Shown piece after piece: positions 15,037-28,343 of a stretch of 64,000 nt of DNA. The position numbers and the translations under genes were made by a program. A model generated the notes under the pieces. That model was given only the letters and a program-made list of their open reading frames with translations. It did not search any database and was not told the origin of the DNA. The number at the start of each line of letters is the position of its first letter. Position 1 is the stretch's first letter. Source of the stretch: Hyphomicrobiales bacterium (lineage in GTDB: Bacteria; Pseudomonadota; Alphaproteobacteria; Rhizobiales; Xanthobacteraceae); NCBI GenBank assembly GCA_009377695.1, contig WHTP01000002.1, positions 37,473 to 101,472 on the forward strand. The letters run 5' to 3'.

Positions 15037-15114
15037 CTCGTGTGGCGGTTCAGAAGTCCGCACTATTTTCGCGGCGAGTGCGAATTGCGGACTTCTGAAC
15101 CTAAGCCACACGAG
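15037..15114. repeat. Palindromic repeat, family E (CTCGTGTGGC GGTTCAGAAGTCCGCA-loop-TGCGGACTTCTGAACC..GCCACACGAG)
   Basis: Read directly. Confidence 0.85.
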
Positions 15115-15127
15115 ACTCAATGAGTTG

Positions 15128-15202
15128 CTAGTGTCCTTCGATTCCGAAGTTCGTATAAGAGGCCGCCGCGCAATGGTACGAACTTCGGAATCGAGACACT
15201 AG
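15128..15202. repeat. Palindromic repeat, family E (CTAGTGTCC..GATTCCGAAGTTCGTA-loop-TACGAACTTCGGAATC..CACTAG)
   Basis: Read directly. Confidence 0.85.
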
Positions 15203-26003: not shown

Positions 26004-26069
26004 CGGTTTCTCACCGGCGTCGGGCTATGACCTGCATTGGAATGTGAACGACACGGCGATCTACCTCGG
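26004..26069. repeat. Left copy of an imperfect direct repeat of about 65 bp flanking the HypX-like gene
   Basis: Hand alignment with 28222-28285, roughly 80 percent identical. Shared blocks include GGGCTA.GACCTGCATT, GTGAA and ACACGG. Confidence 0.7.
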
Positions 26070-26224
26070 TTGGCGGCAGGTGCGTAGCCGTTCCGGAGTA
26101 CGAACACCTTCGGCCGCGCCACGCACAAGCCATGCGCCGGACGAATTTCGTTCGTGCATCGACGGCCATGGAACGAATGCCCCACCGCGGATATAGAAGT
26201 GAGCGTTCCTGCCGTGGGGGATGA

Positions 26225-28147
26225 ATGCGAGTTTTGTTTGTTGCAAACGCGTACAACAGTCTTTGTCAGCGTATGCATGTTGAATTGCTCGATCGCGGTC
26301 ACGAGGTCTCCATCGAGCTCGCCACCAGCGAGCTTGCGATGGTCGAGGCGGTCGAGCTCTATCGGCCGGACCTCATCCTGGCGCCGATGCTGACCAGGCC
26401 GATCCCCGAACGGATCTGGCGCAATCACGTCTGCATCATCCTCCACCCCGGAATCCGGGGCGACCGCGGAGCCTCCTCGCTCGACTGGGCGATCGTCGAG
26501 GATCAGCGCGTGTGGGGGGTGACGGCGCTGCAGGCCGCCGCCGAGATGGATGCCGGCGACGTCTGGTCCGCGCACGAGTTTCTCATGCGGCCGGCCAGCA
26601 AGAGCAGCCTCTACCGCAACGAGATCATGGAGGCCGCCGTCAGGGCGCTGCTCGAAGCCGTCGAGCGGTTCGCGAGCGGGCGCAGCGAACCGGAGCCGCT
26701 CGACCACGGTCGATCCGACACGCGCGGTCGCTGGCACCCGCTGATGAAGCAGGCCGATCGCCGGATCGACTGGTCGGAATCGACGGCCACCATCGTCCGC
26801 AGGATCCGCGCGGGCGACAGTCGGCCGGGCACGCTCGATGCGATCGACGACACGCAATATTACCTCTACGGCGCCCATGCCGAGGACGCTCTGAAGGGCA
26901 GTCCGGGCGAGTTGCTCGCGCAGCGCGATGGCGCCATCTGTCGCGCGACCGGAGATGGCGCCGTATGGATCAGCCATCTGCGTCGGCAGGGCGGCGGCAT
27001 CAAGCTGCCGGCCGCATTGGCGCTCGGCGAGGCCGCGGCGGGCATTCCGGTCGCGGAGGCGGCCAGTGTGGCGGTTCAGAAGTTCGCCATCCCAAGCAGC
27101 CAGAGCGAGAGCGAACTTCGGATTCGGGACACTAGCGACGCTGCCGACCATCGGACGTTTCGGGAAATCTGGTACGAGGAGACCGACCATGTCGGCTATC
27201 TCCACTTCGATTTCTACAACGGCGCCATGAGCACCGATCAGTGCCGGAGACTGACCGATGCGGTGGGGACAGCGACGCAGCGCCCGACCCGCGTGCTGGT
27301 GCTGATGGGCGGCACTGATTTCTTCTCCAACGGCATCCACCTCAATGTGATTGAGGCAGCGCCCGATCCCGCCGATGAATCCTGGGCGAACATCAACGCG
27401 ATGAACGACCTGGTCCAATCGATCATCCTGACGAAGTCGCATCTCGTGGTTTCGGCCATGCAAGGCAACGCCGCCGCGGGCGGCGTGACGCTCGCCTTGG
27501 CGGCGGACGTCGTCTGGGCCCGCGAGGGCGTCGTGCTCAATCCGCACTACCGCCGGATGGGGCTCTACGGCTCCGAATACTGGACCTACCTGCTGCCGCG
27601 CCGCGTCGGCGCGAGGTGTGCACGTGAGCTGACCACCGCCTGCCTGCCTGTAGGGACGCGACGGGCCAAGAGGATCGGGCTCGTGGACGAGTATTTCGGC
27701 GCTCCCGTCACCGGTTTCGCACGCTGGGTTCGTATCCGGGCGGAGGAGCTTGCGCATGCACCCGATTGGCACGAGCGCCTCTCCGCCAAGGTGGCGGTGA
27801 GGATGGTGGAGCAGGCGATCAAGCCGCTCGAGCGCTACCGCCAGGAGGAATTGGCGCAGATGCGGACGAACTTCTACGGACCGGATCGCACCTATCACAT
27901 CATGCGACACAATTTCGTGCACAAGATCCAGCGCGGGCCGACGCCGTCCTACCTGGCGAAGCATCGCACCGTGTTCGCGGCCCCTGCCGGCCGCAAGAAC
28001 CCGATCGATCCCGCGGGCGTCCGCCTCTCCGCAAGCGATCGGGTCAACCCTCGCCTGTCGAAGCCGGCGGACGTGCCGATGGCCGATAATAGCAACAAAC
28101 CTCCGCCCCAGCGCCGCTCCCGCTTCCTCTCTCTGTTTCGCGGATGA
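26225..28147 (+). CDS. hypX: HypX/HoxX-like protein (N-terminal formyltransferase-like domain fused to a C-terminal crotonase/enoyl-CoA hydratase-like domain)
   Basis: N-terminus: MRVLFVANAYNSL...ILHPGIRGDRGASSLDWAI. C-terminus: ...VLVLMGGTDFFSNGIHLN...AMQGNAAAGGVTLALAADVVWA... This domain architecture is that of HoxX/HypX. Confidence 0.75.
   Translation: MRVLFVANAYNSLCQRMHVELLDRGHEVSIELATSELAMVEAVELYRPDLILAPMLTRPIPERIWRNHVCIILHPGIRGDRGASSLDWAIVEDQRVWGVTALQAAAEMDAGDVWSAHEFLMRPASKSSLYRNEIMEAAVRALLEAVERFASGRSEPEPLDHGRSDTRGRWHPLMKQADRRIDWSESTATIVRRIRAGDSRPGTLDAIDDTQYYLYGAHAEDALKGSPGELLAQRDGAICRATGDGAVWISHLRRQGGGIKLPAALALGEAAAGIPVAEAASVAVQKFAIPSSQSESELRIRDTSDAADHRTFREIWYEETDHVGYLHFDFYNGAMSTDQCRRLTDAVGTATQRPTRVLVLMGGTDFFSNGIHLNVIEAAPDPADESWANINAMNDLVQSIILTKSHLVVSAMQGNAAAGGVTLALAADVVWAREGVVLNPHYRRMGLYGSEYWTYLLPRRVGARCARELTTACLPVGTRRAKRIGLVDEYFGAPVTGFARWVRIRAEELAHAPDWHERLSAKVAVRMVEQAIKPLERYRQEELAQMRTNFYGPDRTYHIMRHNFVHKIQRGPTPSYLAKHRTVFAAPAGRKNPIDPAGVRLSASDRVNPRLSKPADVPMADNSNKPPPQRRSRFLSLFRG
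27065..27135. repeat. Family E palindromic repeat copy inside the HypX-like ORF
   Basis: GTGTGGCGGTTCAGAAGTTCGC matches the left arm at 15040-15061. GCGAACTTCGGATTCGGGACACTAG matches the right arm at 15178-15202. Confidence 0.8.
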
Positions 28148-28221: not shown

Positions 28222-28285
28222 CGGTTCTCACAGGCGTGGGCTACGACCTGCATTTGAAAGTGAATTACACGGAGATTTACGTCGC
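28222..28285. repeat. Right copy of the direct repeat flanking the HypX-like gene
   Basis: See 26004-26069. Confidence 0.7.
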
Positions 28286-28343
28286 CAGACGCTAGGAGCT
28301 AGAGTCCCTCAGGCCGCAAGGCGACCATCGAGGAGGAGATCAG

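What the first reader, a model, noticed from the sequence alone, without database searches (positions are those of the whole stretch)
27065..27135. Palindromic repeat element embedded in frame in the HypX-like interdomain linker
Seen:
- GTGTGGCGGTTCAGAAGTTCGC matches the left arm of the intergenic element at 15040-15061, 21 of 22 by eye.
- GCGAACTTCGGATTCGGGACACTAG matches the right arm at 15178-15202, about 22 of 25 by eye.
- The stretch is translated without a stop as ...SVAVQKFAIPSSQSESELRIRDTSD..., between the formyltransferase-like and crotonase-like domains. The TAG of CACTAG is out of frame.

Inference: a mobile REP/MITE-like element inserted into a tolerant linker and became coding. 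Alternatively, the linker is where the two-domain gene was joined.
Basis: seen in the sequence. Interest (0 to 1): 0.6.

Follow-up and report, generated by a model that had tools for sequence, protein, structure and literature searches.

The report
Hairpin repeat translated inside HypX gene
A 69-base, internally deleted copy of a small mobile hairpin repeat (about 280 copies in this genome) sits in frame in the flexible loop between the two halves of a HypX-like enzyme and is read as 23 extra amino acids; this is a clean but ordinary example of something already known from Rickettsia and other bacteria.

Summary
Window 27066-27135 is a short member of a dispersed repeat family. That family has about 280 left-arm cores and 233 paired copies in this genome. 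Its modal form is a 163-166 nt double hairpin bounded by C-TA-G.

The copy in the gene joins the left arm and loop of hairpin A to the right arm of hairpin B. It is what a deletion between two direct GCGAACTTC repeats of a full-length copy of the rarer subfamily would leave.

Full-length copies carry stop codons in all six frames. This 67-nt derivative is open in three frames. Its net gain is 69 nt, which adds 23 residues (S281-T303).

The four closest orthologs (81-85% identity) lack the insert. So do nine more distant HypX proteins that I aligned and the solved Aquifex HypX structure. The insert falls in the interdomain loop and is modelled as disordered. All five catalytic residues are kept, and dN/dS is 0.2-0.36.

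It is the only copy embedded in a gene in this genome. What mobilises the family is unresolved. The gene is an orphan: no HypD or [NiFe] large subunit was found.

This scan has already reported in-frame palindromic inserts in other genomes, and this CTAG-bounded family elsewhere. I rate it a new member of a known kind, of low to moderate interest.

The parts
26225..28147 (+). HypX/HoxX-like gene, 640 aa: formyltransferase-like N-domain plus crotonase-like C-domain. It is the host of the insert.
   Evidence: ORF, translation, Pfam. phmmer to PDB 6J0P gives E 2e-166 over residues 1-582. H74, D80, D109, Y442 and E451 are invariant in the alignment.
27067..27135 (+). Net inserted DNA, 69 nt = 23 codons (S281-T303, SVAVQKFAIPSSQSESELRIRDT). 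This equals GTGT..ACAC (27066-27132, 67 nt) plus one TA. Joining the flanks restores the codon AGC and gives the linker ...GIPVAEAASDAADHRTF...
   Evidence: Sequence. Orthologs lack it. The gap against 6J0P falls at query residues 277-304. pLDDT is below 50 at residues 281-307.
27066..27087 (+). Left arm, identical to the left arm of hairpin A of the minor 'type 2' subfamily (..AAGTTCGC).
27088..27110 (+). Loop segment (CATCCCAAGCAGCCAGAGCGAGA). It derives from the loop of hairpin A and is the most diverged part. The in-frame TAG seen in typical type-2 loops reads CAG here.
   Evidence: Alignment to synthetic deletion derivatives and to the short copy at C161. Frame analysis.
27111..27135 (+). 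Right arm, identical to the right arm of hairpin B of the type-2 subfamily, ending in ACAC-TAG. The deletion junction is at GCGAACTTC (27111-27119).
27121..27125 (.). GATTC, one retained GANTC site. This is the CcrM-type methylation motif that is conserved at four places in full-length copies.
15037..15202 (+). Full-length (166 nt) 'type 1' copy of the family, between a GTP-cyclohydrolase-cluster gene and a cytochrome b561 gene. Hairpin A is 15037-15114, the linker 15115-15127, hairpin B 15128-15202. It is absent at this site in five related genomes.

Best explanation
A copy of a resident non-coding mobile repeat landed in the DNA that encodes the loop linking the two domains of a HypX-like protein.

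The family is a double hairpin bounded by CTAG and rich in GANTC sites. It occurs in about 280 copies in this genome and is shared with most sampled species of the genus.

The copy is a 67-nt derivative: left arm and loop of hairpin A joined to the right arm of hairpin B. A deletion between the two direct GCGAACTTC repeats of a full-length element produces exactly this. That deletion removes every stop codon in the host frame. The net gain of 69 nt keeps the frame, so the element is translated as 23 hydrophilic residues in a disordered surface loop.

The insert is most likely a tolerated, near-neutral passenger. The enzyme's folds and catalytic residues are intact, and the gene has stayed under purifying selection.

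Shown here:
- membership of the repeat family;
- absence of the insert from orthologs;
- the frame arithmetic;
- the position in the loop;
- uniqueness among the copies in this genome.

Inferred:
- neutrality of the insert;
- whether the deletion happened before or after insertion;
- the enzyme that moved the element.
For: Family membership:
- An 18-nt left-arm core occurs 280 times in the genome, and 0 times for the reversed control.
- There are 233 paired copies; 103 of them are exactly 163 nt, and 27 are short forms of 45-119 nt.
- The gene copy has both arms identical to the type-2 subfamily.
- Deleting in silico between the two GCGAACTTC repeats of copies C65 and C91 gives 66-67 nt that match the gene copy at 56-57 of 67 positions. 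A second short copy, C161:14001-14069, has the same junction.

Mobility of the family:
- The copy at 15037-15202 and the copy at C55:26748-26912 are absent from the orthologous sites of four or five related genomes.
- One copy is nested in the internal CTAG of another, with a gain of 162 nt.

Insertion into the gene:
- P0002-P0005 (81-85% identity) and nine more distant HypX proteins lack the segment. DNA from three of the close orthologs confirms this.
- Aquifex HypX (6J0P) has its alignment gap at query residues 277-304, which lies inside its interdomain loop 271-288.

Tolerance of the insert:
- pLDDT is below 50 only at residues 281-307, 443-448 and the C-terminal tail.
- H74, D80, D109, Y442 and E451 are kept.
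- Pairwise dN/dS is 0.18-0.24, and 0.2-0.36 on the window's own branch.
- There is no stop, and no terminator- or promoter-like site at the element.

Why only a short form is readable: full-length copies have at least one stop in all six frames and three in the host frame; the short copy is open in three of six frames.

Uniqueness: of 455 family intervals, only this one has at least 60 coding-like codons in frame on both sides.
Against: - The nearest orthologs are only 81-85% identical and the linker varies in length. The empty site therefore cannot be shown base for base.
- The left boundary reads CCAG, not the usual CTAG.
- The loop part matches other copies at only about half of its positions.
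An assembly artefact or a polymorphism in the population is therefore not formally excluded.
- Nothing here shows that the protein is made or active. The gene has no hydrogenase partner in this genome, so its constraint can only be inferred from dN/dS.
Confidence: 0.88

Rival explanations
1. The insert has been put to use. Either the 23 extra residues lengthen the tether between the two domains, between which bound CoA swings, or the retained hairpin and GANTC site tune transcription, methylation or translation of the gene.
For: - The gene stayed under purifying selection on the branch that carries the insert.
- One GANTC site and a moderately stable hairpin are retained.
- The in-frame stop typical of type-2 loops is absent.
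Against: - There is only one such copy, so there is no conservation to test.
- The peptide is predicted disordered.
- The hairpin is far weaker than in intact copies, with z = -2.0.
- HypX proteins work without the segment, and the linker length varies freely among orthologs.
Confidence: 0.07
2. Assembly artefact: a repeat copy was wrongly joined into the gene during assembly of a draft genome of 235 contigs in which this family often ends contigs.
For: - Many contigs end in copies of this family.
- Reads could not be inspected.
Against: - Both flanks are the same gene, in the same frame and in the right order, on a 113.8-kb contig.
- The copy has a unique loop sequence found nowhere else in the genome.
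- A mis-join would not restore a 640-aa open frame.
Confidence: 0.03
3. The similarity runs the other way: the repeat family arose from this linker, or the segment is a scar of the ancient fusion of the two domains.
For: Only that the segment sits exactly between the two domains.
Against: - No ortholog has the segment, although all have the fusion.
- HypX was found in only one other of 73 genomes of the genus, and that one is a distant version. The repeat core, by contrast, occurs in 17 of 24 genus genomes sampled.
- The gene copy is a deletion derivative of the full element, not its source.
Confidence: 0.01
4. The gene is decaying: an orphan, horizontally acquired gene that is no longer needed. 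On this view the insert is merely the first lesion, and it happens to be in frame.
For: - No HypD and no true [NiFe] large subunit were found in a 95% complete assembly. The two weak PF00374 matches are Complex1_49kDa paralogues.
- The gene lies beside an integrase and is bracketed by 62-nt direct repeats.
Against: - The ORF is intact at 640 aa, all catalytic residues are kept, and GC3 is 0.82 like the host's genes.
- Terminal-branch dN/dS is 0.2-0.36.
- The closest orthologs are equally orphan yet conserved.
Confidence: 0.1

Closest known systems
Rickettsia palindromic elements (RPEs) and other in-frame MITE insertions (intragenic ERIC/RU elements, the 107-bp Correia form), as reviewed in PMC10969869 and PMC2229807
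   Same: A short palindromic dispersed repeat is inserted in frame in an ordinary enzyme gene. It is translated as an extra surface segment, is absent from orthologs, and leaves the host fold intact.
   Different: - RPE families are stop-free and sit in genes often (44 gene insertions in R. conorii, per PMC10969869). Here full-length copies have stops in all frames and only 1 of about 300 copies is intragenic.
- Readability came from an internal deletion.
- There is no sequence relation to RPEs.
CIR, CcrM-associated intergenic repeats of Caulobacter, Brucella and other Alphaproteobacteria (Chen and Shapiro 2003, known to me only through PMC2229807 and PMC3184786)
   Same: - Two long hairpin arms joined by a linker.
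- TA at the termini.
- Conserved GANTC sites, one of them in a terminal loop.
- Stops in all six frames.
- Alphaproteobacterial host.
   Different: - CIRs are given as about 110 bp, and this family as 163-166 bp.
- PMC2229807 states that CIRs have not been found inside genes; this copy is inside a gene.
- Sequence identity to CIR1-4 could not be tested because the paper is not held.
REP/REPIN elements mobilised by RAYT tyrosine transposases
   Same: - Hairpins with a conserved tetranucleotide at the foot.
- Hundreds of copies.
- A gene matching NCBIfam 'REP-associated tyrosine transposase' is present.
   Different: - The foot is CTAG, not GTAG.
- The hairpins are about 75 nt.
- None of the three RAYT-like genes is flanked by the repeat.
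- Presence of the RAYT across the genus does not follow repeat numbers.
MITEs derived from IS630- or IS5-type insertion sequences that target CTAG and duplicate TA (from my own knowledge of IS630 and the IS427 group)
   Same: - C-TA-G on both sides in 132 of 232 copies.
- Nested insertion at a CTAG.
- When neither side is TA, the two dinucleotides are equal in 7 of 25 copies.
   Different: - No parent IS with matching ends was found.
- No DDE_3 transposase was found.
- The one intact IS5-like element has different inverted repeats.
HypX of Aquifex aeolicus (PDB 6J0P; PMC6802093), the CO-forming maturation enzyme of O2-tolerant [NiFe]-hydrogenases
   Same: The same two domains, a full-length match (E 2e-166) and all five proposed catalytic residues.
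   Different: - 23 extra residues in the interdomain loop.
- A C-terminal tail of about 60 residues, shared with the closest orthologs.
- No hydrogenase or HypD in the genome.

Membership tests
This genome's CTAG-bounded double-hairpin repeat family (type 2 subfamily) | Terminal arms GTGTGGCGGTTCAGAAGTTCGC... and ...GCGAACTTCGGATTCGGGACAC | tested here: met
   Both arms are identical to those of type-2 copies.
This genome's CTAG-bounded double-hairpin repeat family (type 2 subfamily) | Two hairpins joined by a linker, 163-166 nt in all | tested here: not met
   The copy is 67-70 nt with a single chimeric hairpin. It fits a deletion derivative, like 27 other short copies.
This genome's CTAG-bounded double-hairpin repeat family (type 2 subfamily) | C-TA-G on both sides | tested here: inconclusive
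   The right side is TAG and the left side is CCA. CCA...TAG is seen in 13 other copies.
RPE-like in-frame palindromic insert | Member of a dispersed palindromic repeat family, read through in frame without a stop | tested here: met
RPE-like in-frame palindromic insert | Absent from orthologs, located in a surface loop, host fold kept | tested here: met
   Surface exposure rests on a model and on the 6J0P loop, not on a structure of this protein.
RPE-like in-frame palindromic insert | The family is frequently found inside genes | tested here: not met
   Only 1 of 455 intervals has coding-like frame on both sides.
CIR (CcrM-associated intergenic repeats) | Two hairpin arms plus a linker; TA at the termini | tested here: met
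   Met for full-length copies, not for the gene copy.
CIR (CcrM-associated intergenic repeats) | Conserved GANTC sites | tested here: met
   Four sites are kept in 80-97 of 103 copies. Density is 20 per kb against 2.3 per kb genome-wide.
CIR (CcrM-associated intergenic repeats) | Sequence similarity to CIR1-CIR4 | not testable with these tools
   The Chen and Shapiro paper is not held, and there is no Rfam family.
REP/REPIN with RAYT | The cognate RAYT gene is flanked by the repeats and co-occurs with them | tested here: not met
   RAYT-like genes exist. None has a copy within 1 kb; the nearest is about 1 kb away, beyond hemF. Genomes with a 70%-identical RAYT have 0-2 repeats.
Transposase-derived MITE | Target-site duplication | tested here: inconclusive
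   TA is on both sides in 132 of 232 copies, and equal non-TA pairs occur in 7 of 25. Empty sites in relatives are too diverged to decide.
Transposase-derived MITE | A parent insertion sequence with the same ends | tested here: not met
   No DDE_3 was found. The IS5-like element at C143 has other inverted repeats. The assembly is a draft, so absence is not proven.
HypX/HoxX | Formyltransferase-like plus crotonase-like domains with H74, D80, D109, Tyr and Glu | tested here: met
HypX/HoxX | Works with a [NiFe]-hydrogenase and the Hyp maturation set | tested here: not met
   No HypD was found. The PF00374 matches are Complex1_49kDa paralogues. The neighbouring genes are unrelated.

The most novel reading that the evidence does not exclude
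Internal deletion may be a general route by which stop-laden, CIR-type double-hairpin repeats of Alphaproteobacteria become translatable. On this reading, the present case is the first recorded intragenic member of that superfamily, and the 23-residue tether or its retained methylation site has been kept because it changes how an orphan CO-forming enzyme works or is expressed.
Probability: 0.08. Interest if true: 0.5.

Novelty: new member of a known kind. Interest (0 to 1): 0.3.

Why it matters
The case shows how a class of repeats that normally cannot survive in genes, because it has stops in every frame, can still add protein sequence. A deletion between the two hairpins strips the stops and leaves a length divisible by three.

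It also marks, by natural experiment, a place where HypX tolerates 23 extra residues. That is useful to anyone who wants to tag or split this enzyme.

It adds an intragenic case to a widespread alphaproteobacterial hairpin repeat type that a review describes as strictly intergenic (PMC2229807).

It does not reveal a new kind of system.

Tried and rejected
- Closer orthologs. Scans of metagenome and genome collections with the protein gave nothing above 57% identity. All 73 other genomes of the genus gave only one distant HypX carrier. The empty site could therefore not be shown base for base.
- Reads.
- Mobiliser.
  - A RAYT gene (P0121) exists, but its flanks carry no copy and its distribution across the genus does not follow the repeats.
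  - No IS630-type DDE_3 was found.
  - An IS5-like element bounded by CTAG has unrelated inverted repeats.
- Target-site duplication. I searched the joined flanks of 15 sites in five relatives; I had intended 30 but pasted only the first 15 blocks. One site aligned across the junction, and at 77-83% identity the junction could not be read unambiguously.
- Rfam. No family matched at gathering score, and only chance miRNA hits appeared at a permissive threshold.
- CIR sequences. The original paper is not held.
- A second apparent intragenic hit, C139:14452-14470, was a chance 19-mer with no partner arm.
- Two polypeptides. No in-frame stop, restart signal or terminator was found at the element.

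Full report
**What is at the site.** GTGTGGCGGTTCAGAAGTTCGC (27066-27087) matches 15040-15061 with one mismatch. GCGAACTTCGGATTCGGGACACTAG (27111-27135) matches 15178-15202 with three mismatches. Shuffled sequence gave no such pair.

They lie in the 640-aa ORF 26225-28147(+). That ORF reads through them as S281-T303, SVAVQKFAIPSSQSESELRIRDT. Pfam places formyltransferase domains at residues 35-257 and a crotonase domain at 335-529. The protein matches Aquifex aeolicus HypX (PDB 6J0P) over residues 1-582 with E 2e-166.

**The repeat family.**
- The window's own genome holds 280 matches to the 18-nt left-arm core and none to the reversed control.
- It has 233 copies with both ends. Of these, 103 are exactly 163 nt from GTGT to the final TAG, or 166 nt with the leading CTA.
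- A full copy, such as 15037-15202, is two separate hairpins joined by a 13-nt linker. It folds at -100.9 kcal/mol with z = -11.6.
- The ends read C-TA-GTGT...ACAC-TA-G.
- Copies average 93.5% identity to their consensus.
- Four GANTC sites are conserved in 80-97 of the 103 copies, giving 20 sites per kb against 2.3 genome-wide.
- CTAG itself is rare in this genome, at 0.17 of expectation. About a fifth of all CTAGs lie in these copies.

The exact core is found in 17 of 24 sampled genomes of the genus, at 1-53 copies each, and in one of 16 other families of the order. Hairpins of the looser form CTAGTGT...ACACTAG, often in pairs, occur in 19 of the 201 genomes searched across the class, this genome included. 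Earlier notes of this scan (e1-3061234, e1-4198629) describe the same type elsewhere.

**Evidence that the family moves.** The copy at 15037-15202 is missing from the same intergenic site in five related genomes. The copy at C55:26748-26912 is missing in four. At C14:15824-16148 one copy sits in the internal CTAG of another, with a gain of exactly 162 nt.

**What the gene copy is.** Its arms are those of a rarer subfamily, of which I listed eleven copies. That subfamily has ...AAGTTCGCC on the left and GCGAACTTCGGATTCGG... on the right.

The gene copy has the left arm and loop of hairpin A, followed directly by the right arm of hairpin B. The right arms of A and B both begin with GCGAACTTC. 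Deleting between those two direct repeats in full-length copies C65 and C91 gives 66-67 nt, which match the gene copy at 56-57 of 67 positions. A second short copy, C161:14001-14069, has the same junction.

The other 25 short copies in the genome have varied junctions. Such deletions therefore recur.

**Why this copy can be read through.** The resulting hairpin is imperfect, at -25.7 kcal/mol with z = -2.0.

Full-length copies carry at least one stop in each of the six frames and three in the frame used by the gene. The short copy is open in three of six frames.

The net gain is 69 nt under either way of drawing the boundary: 67 nt plus a duplicated TA, or TGT...CTAG placed after CCAG. Joining the flanks restores the codon AGC. 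It gives the linker GIPVAEAASDAADHRTF, one residue longer than those of the closest relatives.

I cannot tell whether the deletion came before or after the insertion. The shared junction with C161 hints that a short form moved. An in-place deletion of 93 nt from a 162-nt insertion would equally keep the frame.

**Orthologs.** The four closest proteins (P0002-P0005, 81-85% identity, from soil-type metagenomes) lack the segment. So do nine more distant HypX proteins. DNA of three close orthologs shows the gap at the element. The alignment to 6J0P has its only large gap at query residues 277-304. This corresponds to the loop, residues 271-288, that links the two domains of the solved structure (PMC6802093).

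No closer relative was found in two large collections or in the genus.

**State of the host gene.** An AlphaFold model built on the 13-sequence alignment has confident domains. pLDDT is below 50 at residues 281-307, 443-448 and the C-terminal tail. The proposed catalytic residues His74, Asp80, Asp109, Tyr416 and Glu426 of the Aquifex enzyme correspond to invariant H74, D80, D109, Y442 and E451 here.

Nei-Gojobori dN/dS over 540 codons is 0.18-0.24 between pairs. It is 0.2-0.36 on the window's own branch, by three-point decomposition. No promoter- or terminator-like site lies at the element.

**How unusual it is.** I screened 455 family intervals for an open frame with at least 60 coding-like codons on both sides. 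Only the hypX copy passed. One other candidate was a chance 19-mer.

The family therefore behaves as an intergenic repeat. This fits the statement in PMC2229807 that CIR-type repeats are not found in genes and have stops in every frame. It differs from the Rickettsia elements, which are stop-free and common in genes (PMC10969869). In-frame palindromic inserts have been reported several times by this scan in other phyla.

**Mobiliser.** This is unresolved.
- The genome encodes a protein matching NCBIfam 'REP-associated tyrosine transposase' (182 bits against a cut-off of 80), plus two paralogues.
- None of these has a family copy beside it.
- Genus genomes with a 70%-identical orthologue have 0-2 repeats, while several genomes with dozens of repeats show none.
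- No DDE_3 transposase was found.
- An 880-bp IS5-like element bounded by CTAG has unrelated 19-bp inverted repeats.
- The flanks are TA on both sides in 132 of 232 copies. Where neither side is TA, they are equal in 7 of 25. That leans towards a 2-bp duplication but does not prove it.

**Context.** The gene is an orphan.
- Its neighbours are a luciferase-like monooxygenase, a TctC-type receptor, a DUF302 protein and a phage-type integrase.
- HypD was not found.
- The only PF00374 matches are the N-termini of two Complex1_49kDa paralogues.
- Only one of the 73 other genomes of the genus has HypX, as three copies at 56-59% identity.
- The closest orthologue is equally orphan.
- A 62-nt direct repeat (76% identity) brackets the gene.

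The gene was therefore probably acquired by transfer and invaded afterwards by the resident repeat. The host is probably a member of Xanthobacteraceae, but this rests only on the name of a 76%-identical RAYT homologue.

**Verdict.** This is a tidy, well-documented example of a known phenomenon. Its one small twist is that readability was gained by internal deletion in a repeat type otherwise confined to intergenic DNA.

Noticed in passing
window 26225-28147 and the whole genome: The HypX-like gene is an orphan. No HypD and no true [NiFe] large subunit were found in the 95% complete assembly, and the neighbouring genes are unrelated. The closest orthologue (L021) is equally orphan. This clade shares a C-terminal tail of about 60 residues ending in RSRFLSLFRG. 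It may be a CO-forming enzyme with another client.
   Followed up: partly
window 26022-26083 and 28238-28299: A 62-nt direct repeat (76% identity) brackets the HypX-like gene. Only one other genome of the genus has any HypX, and an integrase lies 2 kb downstream. Together these suggest the gene arrived as a cassette.
   Followed up: partly
G000 genome-wide, e.g. C8:14037-14112 and the flanks of many copies: At least three further families of hairpins bounded by CTAGTG...CACTAG occur, for example CTAGTGGAGTGGATTTGACATTCGC (about 97 arm matches). There are about 455 such hairpins in all. They often abut one another and share a CTAG.
   Followed up: partly
G000:C25:11113-11640 (L024 1363-1890, minus strand): A single-copy RAYT-type tyrosine transposase gene lies directly upstream of hemF. 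It is conserved at about 70% identity in genus genomes that have almost no copies of the repeat. It looks like a resident, perhaps domesticated, gene rather than this family's mobiliser.
   Followed up: partly
G000:C143:189-1068 (L216): An 880-bp IS5-like insertion sequence (DUF4096 + DDE_Tnp_1) has perfect 19-bp inverted repeats, CTAGGGTCTGTAGACATTC. It is also bounded by CTAG.
   Followed up: no
G000 genome-wide: CTAG occurs 3386 times against about 19,700 expected from base composition. Of these, 19% lie in the paired copies of this one family. GANTC is nine times denser in the copies than in the genome.
   Followed up: yes
G000:C53:44-1096 and C170 (L037 739-1683, minus strand): Two paralogues of 315-351 aa belong to the Complex1_49kDa family and have a hydrogenase-like N-terminus. 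Both lie at contig ends. They could be NuoD copies or parts of hydrogenase-related complexes.
   Followed up: no
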